A stretch of DNA of 64,000 nt. Source: Escherichia phage vB_ESM-pEJ01. The notes beneath the pieces were generated by a model that was not told the DNA's origin, did not search any database, and was given only the letters and a program-made list of their open reading frames with translations. Each line of letters opens with the position of its first letter. Within the stretch, counting starts at the first letter, position 1. Below, one piece after another: positions 32,673 through 38,358 of the stretch. Location of the stretch: sequence record OP114734.1. One strand, given 5' to 3'. The position numbers and the translations under genes were made by a program.

Positions 32673-32713
32673 AGTCTCTTCCTCTCTTCGTTTTCGATGC
32701 TCTCACTATATCA

Positions 32714-32741
32714 CAGAAAAATAAAAAGGGAAACCCCTTTC
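32714..32741 (-). terminator. rho-independent terminator
   Basis: AAAGGG-gttt-CCCTTT hairpin followed by TTTTTATTTTT. Confidence 0.55.
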
Positions 32742-32762
32742 AGAGTCTCCCTTATAAAGCCA

Positions 32763-33051: not shown

Positions 33052-33285
33052 TTATTTTCCTTCTGGGATATAGTCGATGATTAAAGAAAATTCATCTTCT
33101 GATACATTATAGCTATGTGAGATTGTACCCGTAAAGACCTCAAGATCCGGTGATTTGATATTGCACGGATCGATAATCACCGGAACGCCGCAATCTCTCA
33201 AAAATAATTTGGCGAAATACGGCACGAGGTCAGTTTCAAACTCTGCTTCTTCCAGCAAACGGGAAATGTTAATTTTCAATCTCAT
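33052..33285 (-). CDS. hypothetical protein (77 aa)
   Basis: ORF. Confidence 0.4.
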
Positions 33286-33802
33286 AAAATTGGTCCAGGC
33301 TAGGCAATTCCTCGGTCAATACATCTTCAACCTTTGGCGCTTTCGGTTTATTGACCGATTCCTCGTAGTTGTTGATTTTATCGTAAATGTCCTGTATGAA
33401 TGCCTCATCAGCAATCTGGCACATATCAGCGTCGCGTTCGTCATATACATGATGCACAAAATATTTGTATTTTGCGGCTGTCGCTGTTCTCTCTTTTTTA
33501 ATGCGCTGTACAAAAGCATTAAAGCACGCTTGCGTGATGTAAGCATGAGGATTTTTATACTTTGTCTCGTCAAAATTAATCAAACCCTTGACCGCCGCTT
33601 CGATTCCGTCGTCGATCATTTCTTCGCGCCATGTTTGACTATAACCAGAAAAGTTAAAACGACGTGATAGATTTTTAGAGATTTGCATAATTGCTAGGCC
33701 GATTTGATCGCTCATTGGAACTTGCCGACCTTCTGCTGCAATTTGTTGTTTCCAACGGCAAATTTCTTCGTAAAGCTCTTTATTGTTTACATAATCAGAC
33801 AC
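33269..33802 (-). CDS. 55: late-transcription sigma factor (T4 gp55 homologue)
   Basis: Long identical blocks to T4 gp55 ([43 protein letters not shown]). Confidence 0.9.
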
Positions 33803-33842: not shown

Positions 33843-35312
33843 CTATTCCCCATTGCCATTATACTTTCTTTGCTTAGTTATCCACACTCTAACCATCTCT
33901 ACTGATTCACCGTCAGACGGATCAAGAGTTTTTCCTTTTTTCTTCATGCGGTACTTAAATCCGTTAAATCTTGCATTCTCTTGCTCGTTAAAGTCGAACA
34001 TCTTTTTAAATGATTTTCGCCCTTTACGCTCACCACATTCTAGCGGAATCATTCGGTCTGTTATTACATTGGCATTAGGTAGAAACGTTTTTAGATAATC
34101 CACCAACGCCCAATCAGGAACATATAGATTAACATTCTCCTTGCTCTCGTTGTCTCTCAGGTTACAACGCAAACATAATTGAAATGCTGGTTCCAGATAA
34201 TCAGACACATGACGCGCTTTCAAAAACTCATTTGTCGGGAGATCACAACTATTAGCAAGACCTTTTAAAATATCAATCTCCCATCGTTGAGGGTTAAAGC
34301 TGAACATCACAGCAACATTTTTATGATGAATGTAAGAGTTAAGACCATAAGATCCGTAAGGTATCCGCTCACCAATACCATTTGTACACGCTTCACGGTC
34401 CCGATTCACGGTATAAATGAAGTCATCACCACATTCATTTTTAACCATATCAACAAGACGTTCAAAGGTATTGTTTGTTTCTGACTGGTGACGCGACCAT
34501 CGTTCGGAGTCCGTCATGAGGATGATATTAACTCTATCTGTATTTTTATACTCTTTGAAATATAGTCGGGATTCTAGCGCACTCGGAACAAAATCGCAAT
34601 TTTCATAGTATCGTAGATACTTCCCGCTATATGTATCAAAGAGATTTGCACATGCTATCGTAACCTTTTTAAAGTCTCCCCACGTACCGTGTTTGTTATC
34701 GTTCAAGAAAACAATTTTCGACCCGTTCTTCCGGTGTCCTTCGTTATGTTTTACCATAACGTTGATTTTCTTCTCTAATAACGCCTCATAAAGCCCTCTA
34801 AGAGAAGAATCGATCATATCAGTACCATCCTTTGCACTTTCTATCTTTTCTTTGATAGCGGCCTTCTCAGAGTCTTTTAGAACTAAGTTCTGTAGGCATT
34901 CCGATTCGTCGGCGATTGGTTCGCAATGCTTCGTGATAAGTTCAAGATTAGACTTAAACGGATACTCATTAAATTCAACCAGTTGAGGAACTTCATCAAT
35001 GTAAAGAGCATATTCACCAAACATTTTTGAACGTTCCATATTAGATAACGCTGTATGTGTAATGAATATCACATCAGCACCATCTTTAACTGATTGCATT
35101 ATCGACGCTTGCACTGTCTTAAGGCTTCTTAGTCTTGTGCTATCAATCAAGACAGCACGACCGCCCATTCTTTTAAACTTATTGTAAGATTGTTCACTTA
35201 AAACACGAGATGGCGAAGCAATAACCGCTTTTTCTTTTGTCTCTAGGACGTGGGAAAGTATAGCATCAGTTTTCCCCGCCGCTGGCAATGCGATTAATGT
35301 TTCAATCTTCAT
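33843..35312 (-). CDS. P-loop NTPase, helicase-like (function unknown)
   Basis: 489 aa; Walker A ALPAAGKTDA at N-terminus, DEVPQ (DExx) ~100 aa later; no further helicase motifs recognised. Confidence 0.45.
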   Translation of the reverse strand: MKIETLIALPAAGKTDAILSHVLETKEKAVIASPSRVLSEQSYNKFKRMGGRAVLIDSTRLRSLKTVQASIMQSVKDGADVIFITHTALSNMERSKMFGEYALYIDEVPQLVEFNEYPFKSNLELITKHCEPIADESECLQNLVLKDSEKAAIKEKIESAKDGTDMIDSSLRGLYEALLEKKINVMVKHNEGHRKNGSKIVFLNDNKHGTWGDFKKVTIACANLFDTYSGKYLRYYENCDFVPSALESRLYFKEYKNTDRVNIILMTDSERWSRHQSETNNTFERLVDMVKNECGDDFIYTVNRDREACTNGIGERIPYGSYGLNSYIHHKNVAVMFSFNPQRWEIDILKGLANSCDLPTNEFLKARHVSDYLEPAFQLCLRCNLRDNESKENVNLYVPDWALVDYLKTFLPNANVITDRMIPLECGERKGRKSFKKMFDFNEQENARFNGFKYRMKKKGKTLDPSDGESVEMVRVWITKQRKYNGNGE

Positions 35313-35617
35313 TAGAAACCCTTACGTCGTGCTTTCTGGCATTTCTTGATCATTTTATCAGAAATTTCGCGCTTAGGTGCAATCTCTTTCACACCGAAAG
35401 CACTAATGCCAAATTCAGAGAGAATATATTCAACTAACAATTCACGCACACGCGCTTTACCGATATTCACGCCGTTATTTTTCAGATATGTCTGACCTTC
35501 GACTTGCATCAGATCTAAATCTGCGTCGGTAATATTGATTTCTTCCATGCGCCCAAATCGAGAATAAACCATGTGTGCGATTGCATTGTGTACTAACATA
35601 ATATATTCCTCACTCAA
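35312..35617 (-). CDS. hypothetical protein (101 aa)
   Basis: ORF. Confidence 0.4.
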   Translation of the reverse strand: MSEEYIMLVHNAIAHMVYSRFGRMEEINITDADLDLMQVEGQTYLKNNGVNIGKARVRELLVEYILSEFGISAFGVKEIAPKREISDKMIKKCQKARRKGF

Positions 35618-35620
35618 GAA

Positions 35621-35779
35621 TTACTTAATGATACTTACTTTACCAGATCCGTGACAATGAGCGCAACACCCATCACCACGCAATCCTGTTCCGTTACAGT
35701 GTTTACACTTCTTCAACGGTAAAGCCATTATAGCAAATAAAGCAATAATGAATACCGAAACTAAATTCTCAATAATCAT
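35621..35779 (-). CDS. small membrane-anchored DnaJ-type zinc-finger protein (52 aa), not in ORF track
   Basis: MIIENLVSVFIIALFAIMAL TM helix then CKHCNGTG...CAHCHGSG (two CxxCxGxG repeats); GAGGG RBS. Confidence 0.4.
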   Translation of the reverse strand: MIIENLVSVFIIALFAIMALPLKKCKHCNGTGLRGDGCCAHCHGSGKVSIIK

Positions 35780-36038
35780 AAATCGCCCTCAGTTCTTTAT
35801 AGCCTCCAATGTGCTCGTTGTCAATGAATATCTGGGGGTATACAAACCGGAGGCTCTTTGAGTTTAGCCTCCCCGCCAGTTCTTCAATCATATCACGGTC
35901 GGGAATAATGTCAACCCCGACCTGCTTGAATACTGGTTTAAGTGTATACGGAATACCCAGATCATCCAGTAGCTTCATTGCACTAATACAACCATAACAA
36001 TGATAAGCCTCTTTCGGTATACCGTATATCTCGATCAT
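35769..36038 (-). CDS. glutaredoxin-like protein (NrdH-type)
   Basis: CYGC redox motif near N-terminus, thioredoxin-fold length (89 aa), in nrd cluster. Confidence 0.65.
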   Translation of the reverse strand: MIEIYGIPKEAYHCYGCISAMKLLDDLGIPYTLKPVFKQVGVDIIPDRDMIEELAGRLNSKSLRFVYPQIFIDNEHIGGYKELRAIYDY

Positions 36039-36535
36039 TTCTCAGCCTTTAATCTTTCTAGTTCTTCTTCCAGTTCCTTGATCCGTTGGTCGCGTTCAAA
36101 GTCACGCTGTAACTTAGTGGCGAATACTCGTTTAAACTGATTGTAATCATCGATTTTAAACACTTCTTCTTCGCCATAGCGACGCACAGAAACTTCGTAG
36201 TTATTGAAGAATTGTTGCATCATTGCTTCGGATGATAGTTCTGCTGATACTACTTTAAAATATTGATCTTCTGTAGGCGAAAACCAATTACAAGCATAAA
36301 GATAAACCTTTTCATTGTCTGGACACTGGTAAGCCTTACCATCGATTTCAATCACAGAAACATATTCAGGTATACTAGATGAATCAATAGCTAAGACTTT
36401 AAACGCACGGTCCCCGATAAACTCGGAGATCACACGATTCGCATCACTGGTTGCAAATGCTTTACGCGCTTGTTCGTTTTTCCACTGATAGGTCATACCA
36501 ACAACAAACATATTACCATCCTCGCTCTTTACCAA
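36035..36535 (-). CDS. paralogous-family protein, array 1 member D
   Basis: Shares FKV..ID..G.V..IEIDG.Y module and coiled-coil tail with neighbours. Confidence 0.5.
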   Translation of the reverse strand: MVKSEDGNMFVVGMTYQWKNEQARKAFATSDANRVISEFIGDRAFKVLAIDSSSIPEYVSVIEIDGKAYQCPDNEKVYLYACNWFSPTEDQYFKVVSAELSSEAMMQQFFNNYEVSVRRYGEEEVFKIDDYNQFKRVFATKLQRDFERDQRIKELEEELERLKAEK

Positions 36536-37337
36536 TCAAAAATTCAACTTCACGACGTTTAATGTCTTCTTGAAGGTCTTTAATCTTCTGGCGATCTTGC
36601 ATGATTTCATCCATCTTGTCAAGTGCCGCAATGAAATCATCGAAACGTTCAAAGGTTTTACCTTCATTTGCTTCGCCAAATTTAACCATTGTCAGGCCGT
36701 AACGACTACTAAACAGACGTTTCAACTGTCCAACGATTTTAGAATCAGTGGTTATAACTTCCAATTCTTCTACTTCACGAAAGAATTTTCTATCAGAATC
36801 AATAAACCAGCTAGTTCCTTTATGGTCTCTATCTTCGGTTGCGCTCATTAGAGTATGGTCTTTACCATCAATTTCAATTACATCAATTTGCCCACATGGA
36901 CTAACATTTTTAACAGTAAAAGGTCTATAATTTATTGCTCGTGCAATAACATAATTAAGGTTAGATACGTTTTCAGCATAATGGCAGAAGTCGGTCATAG
37001 CATTCGCATCTTTCCAAGTATAAGTTTTACCAACTTCCCATTTCTGGGGAACTTCTTCAACTTCACGAAAGAATTTTCTATCGAATGGACTAAAGAAATA
37101 TGTTGCCGTCCAAATGTCTTTTCCTGTAGCAGTTTTCGCCGTATGATAAACACCGTCTAGCTCTATTGCATAAATCCAACCGTTACCATCGATCTCGATG
37201 ATGGTAAATGGCTTGTCACCAATAGCTGCACTAATATCGCTGTTAAGTGGAGAAAGAACACCTTCTCCGTTAGTAATAAACTCAGTTTTAGCGTTTTCGT
37301 CTTTCCAGGTGTAAGTTTTACCAATTTCCCATTTCAT
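36513..37337 (-). CDS. paralogous-family protein, array 1 member C (internal domain duplication)
   Basis: Contains KWE(I/V)GKTYTWKD...DRKFFREVEE twice. Confidence 0.5.
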   Translation of the reverse strand: MKWEIGKTYTWKDENAKTEFITNGEGVLSPLNSDISAAIGDKPFTIIEIDGNGWIYAIELDGVYHTAKTATGKDIWTATYFFSPFDRKFFREVEEVPQKWEVGKTYTWKDANAMTDFCHYAENVSNLNYVIARAINYRPFTVKNVSPCGQIDVIEIDGKDHTLMSATEDRDHKGTSWFIDSDRKFFREVEELEVITTDSKIVGQLKRLFSSRYGLTMVKFGEANEGKTFERFDDFIAALDKMDEIMQDRQKIKDLQEDIKRREVEFLIGKERGW

Positions 37338-37349
37338 AATATATTCCCC

Positions 37350-37832
37350 TTAACCGATTTTATCAAGTTCGTTTAATGCTTTCTCTGCTTCCTGTATAGC
37401 TTGCACCCTTTCCGGCATTTTGTCAAGAAAATCTTTCAACTCTTCAAAACTGGAGATATGACGCAAGGCGTTAGCACCGATAGCCGCATGTGATTTGCAT
37501 TCAAAGCGGATTTTATAATTATCCATCGCCAACTTGAGAAGATCAATTAATTTAGATTCTTCTGGAATAATAATAATTTCTTCAAATCTGCTACGGTCAT
37601 GATCCAGAAACCAACAAGATAGACCTACATCGGTTGAACTCATATAAGTTCCATCATGAAGATAAACAGATCGCACGTATCCTTTTTTCGCATCAACCGA
37701 CGCAACTTTAAACGGTAATCGCAGATATTTCAAATAATCAACATCATACCATTTAAAAAATTGGTTTGCATCTTTTACATCTTTCCACGCATAGGTCTTA
37801 CCAACTTCCCATTTCATAATATCATCTCTCAT
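37350..37832 (-). CDS. paralogous-family protein, array 1 member B
   Basis: MKWEVGKTYAWKD N-terminus; start probably at 37817. Confidence 0.5.
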   Translation of the reverse strand: MRDDIMKWEVGKTYAWKDVKDANQFFKWYDVDYLKYLRLPFKVASVDAKKGYVRSVYLHDGTYMSSTDVGLSCWFLDHDRSRFEEIIIIPEESKLIDLLKLAMDNYKIRFECKSHAAIGANALRHISSFEELKDFLDKMPERVQAIQEAEKALNELDKIG

Positions 37833-38358
37833 TTTTGATACGTGATTCTAATTGGATCATACGGTCGCGCGTTTGTTTGTATTCTCGGATAGCACCGATC
37901 CGGCTAGGCATACCATCCAGTACGCTCTTAATACCTTCTAGGGTAGTAATTTTGGCAATGCTATTATGTAACCCCATCTTATCGATCAACTGAATGTCGT
38001 AGGCTTCCATAAGCAGACCCAGACGTTCTAAAGTTAGGTCTTCTTCTTTTTCTTTCGATTCTGGAATCTTAGGTTCAATAGTAACTTCGGTAAAGAAACG
38101 ACGCTCACCAGCCCAAAACCACACACCATAACAATTGATAGAAGATTCTTTTAACGTCATCGGCTCGGTATCTTCACCGATAATGGTAATTTCACTAACA
38201 TCACCATCAGCATCAAGTGCTTCTACCTTAAACGAACGACCGTTCAACAGGTCAATAATCATACTGTTAATGGATGACGAAAATTTAGTCAGTTCAGCTT
38301 TTGATATTTCACACTTAATGTTGTAGATCTTACCTACTTCCCATTCCATAATAATCAC
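37822..38358 (-). CDS. paralogous-family protein, array 1 member A
   Basis: MEWEVGKIY..., ERRFFTEV motif, coiled-coil tail. Confidence 0.5.
   Translation of the reverse strand: MIIMEWEVGKIYNIKCEISKAELTKFSSSINSMIIDLLNGRSFKVEALDADGDVSEITIIGEDTEPMTLKESSINCYGVWFWAGERRFFTEVTIEPKIPESKEKEEDLTLERLGLLMEAYDIQLIDKMGLHNSIAKITTLEGIKSVLDGMPSRIGAIREYKQTRDRMIQLESRIKNER

What the first reader, a model, noticed from the sequence alone, without database searches (positions are those of the whole stretch)
33843..35312. Uncharacterised 489-aa P-loop NTPase upstream of sigma factor gene 55
An N-terminal Walker A (ALPAAGKT) and a DEVPQ Walker B/DExx box suggest an SF2-like or AAA-like NTPase, but no further helicase motifs are recognisable and the C-terminal 300 aa have no obvious match. 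It occupies the position where T4 carries small 55.x ORFs.
Basis: seen in the sequence. Interest (0 to 1): 0.5.

Follow-up and report, generated by a model that had tools for sequence, protein, structure and literature searches.

The report
Orphan SF2 helicase in RB49-type phage
The 489-aa ORF is a real, conserved but untested helicase-type ATPase of RB49-like and other non-T-even T4-type phages, from a large phage and mobile-element helicase family whose longer members carry a DNA primase domain, so it is an unstudied accessory DNA-metabolism gene and not a new kind of system.

Summary
An ATG ORF at 33843..35312 (-) encodes 489 aa with ALPAAGKT and DEVPQ, just upstream of gene 55, in an RB49-type phage (99.8% identical to RB49 NP_891615, annotated "hypothetical protein").

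K14, D106-E107, G323-x-N325 and Q378-x3-R382-x3-R386 are invariant or nearly so in 142 distant relatives. The family is large (1331 cluster representatives; PHROG 2467, function unknown). About 40% of the relatives sampled carry a C-terminal extension. The modelled example has a primase-polymerase fold, and its DxD-type motif recurs in most extensions. Several relatives sit beside integrase and AlpA genes.

In phages the gene is usually coupled to a gp55.2 homologue (in T4, a DNA-binding topoisomerase I inhibitor). The pair stays together in RB43-type genomes where gene 55 is not adjacent. T-even phages lack the gene.

Most likely role: an accessory ATP-driven DNA helicase or translocase in replication or recombination. 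No activity has been tested. A 2018 paper probably flagged this family already. Moderate interest.

The parts
33843..35312 (-). 489-aa ORF (plus stop codon): divergent SF2 helicase-type ATPase, orthologue of RB49p044 / NP_891615
35268..35291 (-). Motif I / Walker A, residues 8-15 (ALPAAGKT). G13, K14 and T15 are invariant.
   Evidence: K in 128 of 128 aligned distant representatives
34986..34997 (-). Motif II / Walker B, residues 106-109 (DEVP)
   Evidence: DE in 141/142, P in 123/142
34668..34982 (-). Insertion of ~105 aa in RecA domain 1, between motif II and the motif III-like TIAxAN (residues 111-215). This is the position of the Arch domain in XPD/DinG.
   Evidence: Secondary structure of the model. 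XPD/DinG alignments cover 317-368 residues against about 240-260 for other two-domain SF2 hits. The region is collinear with the long relatives.
34644..34667 (-). Motif III-like strand and loop, residues 216-223 (VTIACAN)
34113..34550 (-). RecA-like domain 2, about residues 255-400, with motif IV (FIYTVN, 298-303), motif V (G323-L-N325) and motif VI (Q378-x3-R382-x3-R386), ending in the conserved VPD (398-400)
   Evidence: G323, N325, Q378, R382 and R386 in 142/142
33846..34112 (-). C-terminal basic alpha-helical tail, residues 401-489. It is partly conserved in the linker of the long relatives. A nucleic-acid-binding role is inferred only.
   Evidence: weak non-significant wHTH-like match
35312..35617 (-). 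Upstream, translationally coupled gp55.2 homologue (101 aa, DUF7570). [quoted passage not shown]
   Evidence: PMC4396842; the pairing is conserved in other phages
33269..33802 (-). Downstream gene 55 (late sigma factor). It is a positional neighbour and not part of the conserved module.

Best explanation
The ORF encodes a catalytically competent superfamily 2 (SF2) helicase-type ATPase. It has two RecA-like domains, an XPD/DinG-like insertion after motif II, no Fe-S cluster, and a basic helical tail.

It belongs to a large, experimentally untouched family of phage and mobile-element helicases. Many longer members of that family carry a C-terminal extension. The modelled example has an archaeo-eukaryotic primase-polymerase (AEP) fold, and several long members lie next to integrase and AlpA genes in integrative elements.

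In RB49-type and other non-T-even T4-like phages only the motor is present. It is usually co-transcribed and translationally coupled with a gp55.2 homologue, which in T4 is a DNA-binding topoisomerase I inhibitor.

Most likely it uses ATP to translocate on or unwind DNA as a non-essential accessory factor. It would act on replication or recombination intermediates (forks, D-loops or R-loops) alongside the standard gp41, Dda and UvsW helicases.

Shown here: the fold, the motifs, the size of the family, the domain fusion and the gene linkage. Inferred: DNA as the substrate, unwinding as opposed to mere translocation, 5'-3' polarity by analogy with XPD/DinG, and any cooperation with gp55.2.
For: - Sequence: Pfam DEAD scores 27.4 bits over residues 11-130 against a cut-off of 26. 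A profile of 96 family members hits many SF2 helicases in the PDB, best E = 6e-8.
- Catalytic residues: K14, D106, E107, G323, N325, Q378, R382 and R386 are invariant across 96-142 relatives that are no more than 50% identical to each other.
- Family size: 1331 cluster representatives at E <= 1e-3. Of 146 examined, 80 are core only and 60 have a C-terminal extension.
- Context of long forms: they lie in int / HTH_17-or-AlpA / gene arrangements. Twenty of 65 alphaproteobacterial loci have a tyrosine integrase within 6 kb.
- Homology to long forms: collinear over residues 1-416, BLASTP 4e-19.
- Linkage to gp55.2: overlapping or adjacent in RB49-, RB43-, Proteus- and Morganella-type phages. This holds in RB43, where the pair sits upstream of gene 34 and not gene 55.
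- Precedent: SF2-primase fusions acting as replicative helicases (N15 and PY54 RepA, PAU gp68; PMC4889955). Kazlauskas et al. predicted a novel virus/plasmid helicase family with members in 'some T4-like phages' (PMC5862659, section 17).
Against: - There are no biochemical or genetic data for any family member.
- The phage protein lacks the primase domain. The phage already has gp41, gp61 and Dda in the same window, so a replicative role is not required.
- T-even phages do without this gene although they keep 55.2 (1092 records against 243). The gp55.2 link is therefore not obligatory.
- Similarity to XPD/DinG is moderate (TM 0.4-0.53, 8-15% identity). I could not check residue by residue whether the insertion is homologous to the Arch domain.
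- Some SF2 domains fused to AEPs, such as IEE, hydrolyse ATP but do not unwind (PMC9943667).
- Only about 30% of the bacterial loci show a nearby integrase, and several contexts are uninformative.
Confidence: 0.6

Rival explanations
1. It is a non-unwinding SF2 motor: a dsDNA translocase, protein-displacement factor or end-synapsis factor, or a counter-defence or superinfection-exclusion ATPase. On this view it is not a helicase of phage DNA metabolism.
For: The SF2 domain of the AEP-helicase fusion IEE hydrolyses ATP but does not unwind. It stabilises DNA complexes instead (PMC9943667). The gene is accessory and patchily distributed among T4-like phages, as is typical of host-interaction genes. 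Long relatives lie in islands that also carry restriction, Mrr and other defence-type cargo.
Against: There is no significant PADLOC match (only a weak sub-threshold one, E 0.009). No nuclease, methylase or sensor domain is present in the protein. The defence-type neighbours are ordinary island cargo and are not conserved partners. The conserved partners are a DNA-binding protein (gp55.2) in phages and a primase domain in mobile elements.
Confidence: 0.17
2. It is a dedicated replication-initiator or origin-opening helicase, analogous to herpesvirus UL9 or to the helicase-primase of integrative elements. It would give non-T-even T4-like phages an initiation route that T4 lacks, possibly helped by gp55.2-dependent negative supercoiling.
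For: Long relatives occupy the replication-protein slot after int and alpA and are fused to a primase-polymerase. Kazlauskas et al. note UL9-like similarity for the related pVOG9714. There is a basic helical C-terminal tail. The gene is linked to a topoisomerase I inhibitor.
Against: No Pfam Herpes_ori_bp match appears even at E <= 10. There are no iterons or notable repeats around the gene. No recognisable sequence-specific DNA-binding domain is present. The phage has the full T4-type replisome and recombination-dependent replication genes.
Confidence: 0.1
3. It is an RNA helicase or RNA chaperone of the DEAD-box type that acts on phage transcripts.
Against: No Q motif is possible, because Walker A starts at residue 8. 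Motif II is DEVP, motif III is CAN and motif VI is QxxxRxxxR, in place of DEAD, SAT and HRIGRTGR. The best full-length structural matches are the DNA helicases XPD and DinG. Relatives are fused to DNA primase-polymerases.
Confidence: 0.08
4. It is an inactive relic of a captured mobile-element replication gene and has no enzymatic function.
For: It lacks the primase half found in many relatives. T-even phages have lost the gene.
Against: All catalytic residues are invariant across phage genera at only 31-43% overall identity. The full length is conserved in 237 of 243 phage records.
Confidence: 0.03

Closest known systems
XPD/Rad3/DinG/CasDinG helicases (SF2, 5'-3' DNA helicases)
   Different: There is no 4-Cys Fe-S domain between motifs Ia and II: only about 60 residues lie there and none is a conserved Cys. 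Motif II is DEVP and not DEAH. Motifs V and VI are unusual (GxN; QxxxRxxxR). Sequence identity is only 8-15% and TM only 0.4-0.53. No Pfam DEAD_2 or Helicase_C_2 match was found. Polarity is unknown.
[quoted passage not shown] 2018, PMC5862659)
   Same: The paper describes uncharacterised proteins of 'some T4-like phages' with only remote SF2 similarity, whose homologous domains are fused to AEP primases of mobile elements. That is the pattern found here.
   Different: I could not verify that RB49p044 is in pVOG1685, because the alignment is a figure that is not held as text. In the paper the helicase domain is C-terminal to an All3500-type AEP. Most fusions found here have the opposite order, with the helicase N-terminal and the AEP C-terminal.
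SF2 helicase-primase replication proteins (N15/PY54 RepA, phage PAU gp68) and IEE (AEP + SF2 helicase-like domain)
   Same: In these proteins an SF2 motor is physically coupled to a primase or primase-polymerase in phages and mobile elements (PMC4889955, PMC9943667). The long relatives of the window protein have the same logic.
   Different: The window protein has no primase domain. The domain order in its relatives is reversed. The IEE helicase domain is RadD-like and did not unwind DNA in vitro.
T4 UvsW (SF2 RNA-DNA / branch-migration helicase)
   Same: It is an SF2 protein of about 500 aa encoded by T4-type phages.

Membership tests
Superfamily 2 helicases/translocases | Two tandem RecA-like domains | tested here: met
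   AF2 model with pLDDT 87.8. Two-domain alignments to XPD, DinG, HsdR, Mfd and Ino80.
Superfamily 2 helicases/translocases | Motif I (GKT/S) and motif II (DExx) conserved | tested here: met
   G13-K14-T15 and D106-E107 are invariant in 42 close homologues. In 142 distant homologues D106-E107 are in 141 and K14 in all 128 where the column is aligned.
Superfamily 2 helicases/translocases | Motif VI arginine finger(s) in domain 2 | tested here: met
   Q378, R382 and R386 are present in 142/142. The spacing Qx3Rx3R is atypical.
Superfamily 2 helicases/translocases | Significant sequence-profile similarity to SF2 families | tested here: met
   Pfam DEAD 27.4 bits against a cut-off of 26. The family profile matches PDB SF2 helicases down to E = 6e-8.
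Superfamily 2 helicases/translocases | Nucleic-acid-dependent NTPase or unwinding activity | not testable with these tools
   Needs biochemistry.
DEAD-box RNA helicases | Q motif upstream of motif I; DEAD; SAT; HRIGRTGR | tested here: not met
   Walker A starts at residue 8, so there is no room for a Q motif. Motif II is DEVP, motif III is CAN, motif VI is QLCLRCNLR.
XPD/Rad3/DinG family | 4Fe-4S cluster domain (four Cys) between motifs Ia and II | tested here: not met
   Only C130 and C380 are conserved cysteines. There are none between residues 43 and 105. CasDinG and some DinG proteins also lack the cluster.
XPD/Rad3/DinG family | Arch domain inserted in helicase domain 1 between motifs II and III | tested here: inconclusive
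   A ~105-aa insertion (residues 111-215) lies at that position. XPD/DinG give the longest structural alignments. The tools give no residue-level superposition of the insertion.
XPD/Rad3/DinG family | DEAH box and the family-specific sequence profile | tested here: not met
   Motif II is DEVP. No Pfam DEAD_2, Helicase_C_2 or ResIII hit for the window protein at E <= 10.
XPD/Rad3/DinG family | 5'-3' translocation polarity on ssDNA | not testable with these tools
   Needs helicase assays.
T4 UvsW | Sequence or full-length structural similarity to UvsW | tested here: not met
AEP-associated virus/plasmid helicases (pVOG1685/9714 sensu Kazlauskas 2018) | Homologous helicase domains fused to AEP primase-polymerases in mobile elements | tested here: met
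AEP-associated virus/plasmid helicases (pVOG1685/9714 sensu Kazlauskas 2018) | The window protein or RB49p044 is listed in pVOG1685 or pVOG9714 | not tested
   The pVOG tables are not available here, and supplementary figure S5D is an image.
Bifunctional primase-helicase replication proteins | A primase (AEP or DnaG) domain in the same polypeptide | tested here: not met
   The 489-aa protein ends after the basic tail, with no AEP motifs and no extra domain.

The most novel reading that the evidence does not exclude
The gp55.2-like protein and this helicase form a two-gene module that sets up or resolves negatively supercoiled, R-loop or D-loop structures to start phage DNA replication. In effect it would be a UL9-like or island-type initiator helicase borrowed from integrative elements. 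That would give non-T-even T4-like phages an initiation pathway absent from T4.
Probability: 0.1. Interest if true: 0.65.

Novelty: new variant of a known kind. Interest (0 to 1): 0.35.

Why it matters
T4-type phages are the reference system for phage DNA replication and recombination, and their helicases (gp41, Dda, UvsW) are textbook enzymes. A fourth helicase-type motor, conserved across at least 240 sequenced non-T-even relatives (Krischvirus, Pseudotevenvirus, Biquartavirus, Roskildevirus and others), has never been studied.

It belongs to a family with more than 1300 sequence clusters, which apparently supplies the motor half of helicase-primase replication proteins of integrative elements. 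That family has no characterised member. One biochemical study would annotate thousands of 'hypothetical' or generic 'DEAD/DEAH box helicase family' genes.

Such a study would also clarify how an XPD/DinG-like architecture works without an Fe-S cluster. The conserved coupling to gp55.2 offers a testable link between DNA topology control and helicase action during infection.

The practical value is modest. The gene is probably non-essential, and the general kind of protein is familiar.

Tried and rejected
- NCBIfam gave no hit and PADLOC only a weak sub-threshold match (RTasSLATT, E 0.009), so no known defence or curated bacterial family applies.
- Single-sequence and 42-sequence profile searches of PDB sequences found nothing. 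Only the 96-sequence family profile reached SF2 helicases.
- The AAA+ reading was rejected, because the fold is two RecA-like domains.
- UvsW identity was rejected.
- Origin-like repeats or iterons around the gene: only short chance-level repeats were found.
- The promoter and terminator scan was not above the shuffled expectation: 11 sites against 8.0 +/- 2.7 expected. One strong sigma-70-like site lies inside nrdH.
- The 'DprA-like' neighbour in Aeromonas phages has no Pfam support, only a PHROG name, so I did not use it as evidence.
- The 1219-aa gene downstream in RB43 is the gp34 tail fibre and not a replication partner.
- The AFDB50 fold library was unavailable.
- A genome scan with A3 failed for lack of conserved blocks. 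I repeated it with the alphaproteobacterial subfamily A4, so its taxonomic spread is biased by the query.
- Literature searches for PHROG 2467 and for RB49-specific work on this gene found nothing.

Full report
**Observation.** The window is from an RB49-type phage (Krischvirus). The ORF at 33843..35312 (-) starts with ATG, encodes 489 aa and is 99.8% identical to RB49 NP_891615.1 (RB49p044, 'hypothetical protein'). Gene 55 (177 aa, 33269..33802) starts 40 nt downstream. The ATG overlaps the TAA of the upstream 101-aa ORF (TAATG) and is preceded by AAGG. The same minus-strand block carries gp46, gp47, gp55, nrdH and nrdG. Further along it carries gp43, UvsX, gp41, a Dda-type SF1 helicase and the topoisomerase subunits. 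The ORF is therefore an extra helicase-like gene and not a replacement for a standard one.

**Sequence classification.** Pfam gives only DEAD (PF00270) at 27.4 bits, against a gathering cut-off of 26, over residues 11-130. PHROGs places the whole protein in phrog_2467, 'unknown function' (E = 1.4e-174). NCBIfam gives nothing, PADLOC gives only a weak sub-threshold match (RTasSLATT, E 0.009), and single-sequence or close-family profile searches of PDB sequences give nothing.

In the phage collection 243 records hold a homologue, and 237 cover at least 80% of the protein. All Escherichia-phage matches are RB49-like at 95% identity or more. The rest are 24-42% identical, almost all 34-42%, and come from phages of Aeromonas, Cronobacter, Enterobacter, Citrobacter, Klebsiella, Serratia, Proteus, Morganella and Erwinia. 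T4, T2, T6, RB69-type and related phages lack the gene.

**Conserved residues.** An alignment of 42 clusters (31-74% identity) shows invariant residues at these positions:
- P10, G13, K14, T15: motif I.
- S33 and, nearly invariant, S35, R36 and Q41: 'PSRxLSxQ', resembling motif Ia.
- T85: motif Ib/Ic.
- D106, E107, P109: motif II.
- T218 and N223: 'TIAxAN', motif III-like.
- Y300, N303, R306: 'FIYTxNxxR', motif IV.
- G323 and N325: motif V.
- N340 and P341.
- F377, Q378, L379, C380, R382, R386: motif VI-like.
- V398, P399, D400.

**Structure.** AlphaFold2 on this alignment gave a confident model (mean pLDDT 87.8, pTM 0.76). Residues 1-110 and 216-250 form a RecA-like domain. Residues 111-215 are an inserted alpha/beta module directly after motif II. 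Residues about 255-400 form a second RecA-like domain. Residues 401-489 form a basic, mostly helical tail.

I infer that the extra ~100 aligned residues are the insertion matched to the Arch domain, which in XPD also lies between motifs II and III. That placement comes from my own knowledge of the family. I could not inspect a residue-level superposition.

The Fe-S domain of XPD/DinG is absent. Only about 60 residues separate motifs Ia and II, and no cysteine is conserved there.

**The wider family.** A profile search of 1.84 billion cluster representatives found 1331 relatives at E <= 1e-3 and 765 at E <= 1e-10. Of the best 146, 80 are core only (about 450-600 aa), 60 have a C-terminal extension of more than 200 aa, and 2 have an N-terminal extension.

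Across 142 near-full-length representatives, G323, N325, Q378, R382 and R386 are present in all 142. D106 and E107 are present in 141. K14 is present in every one of the 128 sequences in which that column is aligned (14 show a gap there). N303 is in 135 and D400 in 131. Conservation of this kind indicates an active ATPase with a family-specific signature: GK[TS] ... DExP ... GxN ... Qx3Rx3R ... D. A 96-member profile now reaches many SF2 helicases in the PDB by sequence (Mss116 E = 6e-8, the reverse gyrase helicase domain, NS3, UvrB, XPB, RecG, PriA, Mfd), all through motifs I-Ib. SF2 membership is secure. Membership of any characterised SF2 family is not.

**The long relatives.** The C-terminal extension has no Pfam or PDB sequence match. 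It does carry a conserved hhhD[FNIV][DE]xG motif, in many cases followed about 35-40 residues later by [YF]R[VI]xxP. The D-x-[DE] motif is present in 77 of 95 long proteins overall and in 42 of the 61 extensions among the representatives.

Homology with the phage protein is collinear over residues 1-416, including the insertion (BLASTP 4e-19 to an 806-aa member).

Gene context supports a link to mobile elements, though not in every case:
- Two metagenomic contigs and one MAG contig show a P4-type integrase, then a small HTH_17 or AlpA gene, then this gene. In P4-like islands this position is typically held by the replication (primase-helicase) gene, a point from my own knowledge that I did not test here.
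- Another contig has a divergent integrase next door.
- Other contigs show resolvase, RepA-like and PolB-exonuclease neighbours, or are uninformative.
- In 72 alphaproteobacterial genome loci, 65 carry an ORF that the T4-type profile detects. Twenty of those have a tyrosine-integrase-like ORF within 6 kb.

**Phage context.** The upstream ORF (35312..35617) is a DUF7570 protein, 42% identical to gp55.2 of RB14 (E = 2e-11). T4 gp55.2 binds DNA, specifically blocks relaxation of negative supercoils by E. coli topoisomerase I, and improves phage fitness (PMC4396842).

Among 33 phage loci, a gp55.2 homologue lies on the same strand directly upstream or overlapping in the RB49, RB43, Proteus and Morganella types. 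It lies within 2.3 kb in the Aeromonas 31/25 and Cronus/Serratia types. Single-sequence search failed to find it in six loci, and in at least some of those the records themselves annotate a 55.2 gene.

In RB43-type genomes the pair has moved away from gene 55 and sits upstream of the gene 34 tail fibre, yet stays together with a 4-nt overlap. The pair behaves as a module. The link is not obligatory, however: gp55.2 occurs in 1092 phage records, including the T-evens that lack the helicase.

**Interpretation.** The protein is best read as an ATP-driven DNA motor. The evidence is that its catalytic residues are intact, its nearest structural relatives are DNA helicases, its own relatives are fused to DNA primase-polymerases, and its conserved phage partner is a DNA-binding topology modulator.

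I think it most likely acts as an accessory helicase or translocase on replication or recombination intermediates. It was probably acquired from, or shared with, the replication modules of integrative elements. DNA as substrate, unwinding, 5'-3' polarity and cooperation with gp55.2 are all inferences.

The rivals are these:
- A non-unwinding translocase or a host-interaction factor. The IEE precedent (PMC9943667) shows that AEP-linked SF2 domains need not unwind.
- A UL9-like initiator. This is suggested by the island context and by Kazlauskas et al., but there is no Herpes_ori_bp match and there are no iterons.
- An RNA helicase. The motifs and the fusion partners contradict this.
- A dead relic. 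The conservation contradicts this.

**Comparison with the literature.** Kazlauskas et al. (2018, PMC5862659, section 17) reported that some All3500-family AEPs carry C-terminal domains with only remote SF2 similarity. Their closest homologues are uncharacterised proteins of 'some T4-like phages' and of SPbeta (pVOG1685 and pVOG9714). [quoted passage not shown] This is very probably the same family, although I could not verify the pVOG membership.

What this analysis adds:
- The complete SF2 core and its invariant signature.
- The XPD/DinG-like architecture without an Fe-S cluster.
- The predominance of the reverse fusion order (helicase then AEP).
- The integrase/AlpA context.
- The conserved gp55.2-helicase gene pair.
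- The absence of the gene from T-even phages.

I found no experimental work on any member.

**Verdict.** Interest is moderate at 0.35. The main value would lie in giving the family its first biochemical characterisation and in testing the possible link to DNA topology control.

Noticed in passing
window 36035-38358 (-): Four consecutive ORFs (166, 274, 160 and 178 aa; RB49p048-051, 'hypothetical') form a paralogue array. They share a ~95-aa N-terminal module (KWEVGKTYxWKD...F.V...D..G...IDG...WF..DR.FF.EV), which is duplicated inside the 274-aa ORF. BLASTP between two members gives 5e-13. There is no Pfam family.
   Followed up: partly
window 35621-35779 (-): A 52-aa ORF lies between nrdH and the gp55.2 homologue. 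It has a hydrophobic N-terminus and a CxxC...CxxC zinc-knuckle-like C-terminus, with only weak sub-threshold DnaJ_CXXCXGXG-type matches.
   Followed up: no
window 35887-35914 (-): A near-consensus sigma-70-type promoter (TTGACA, 16-nt spacer, TG, TATGAT; 11 of 12 positions match) lies inside the nrdH coding region. It could drive early transcription of the 52-aa ORF, the 55.2 homologue and the helicase gene. The scan as a whole was not above the shuffled expectation.
   Followed up: no
window 32673-32762, compared with L001 8641-9195: This phage lacks the HNH-AP2 homing endonuclease gene (RB49p040) that RB49 carries between a-gt.4 and gene 47. Here the DUF2654 ORF is followed directly by gene 47.
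   Followed up: no
L008 8168-12445, L045 2401-7392, L044 46-4626: Bacterial relatives of about 800 aa are fusions with an SF2 helicase N-terminal and an AEP primase-polymerase C-terminal, located just after P4-type integrase and AlpA/HTH_17 genes. This domain order is the reverse of IEE and All3500-type AEP-helicase proteins, and no Pfam model covers the AEP part. In L045 the protein is only 463 aa and is followed by a separate 258-aa ORF and DUF927 genes, which may be a split version.
   Followed up: partly
L003 3693-5428 (RB43), L026-L029, L035, L038: In RB43-type phages the gp55.2-like gene and the helicase gene have moved as a unit to just upstream of gene 34 (long tail fibre proximal subunit), away from gene 55.
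   Followed up: partly
L002 3441-4004 (Aeromonas phage 31) and related Aeromonas phages: The gene overlapping the helicase start here is annotated 'DprA-like DNA recombination-mediator protein' (phrog_768) in place of gp55.2. It has no Pfam match, so the name is unverified. A repeat element (31repeatA) separates the helicase gene from gene 55.
   Followed up: no
L005 4908-7196 (Agrobacterium jumbo phage Atu_ph07): A 762-aa member of the same PHROG (2467) occurs in a 490-kb jumbo phage, with about 240 extra C-terminal residues of unknown nature.
   Followed up: no
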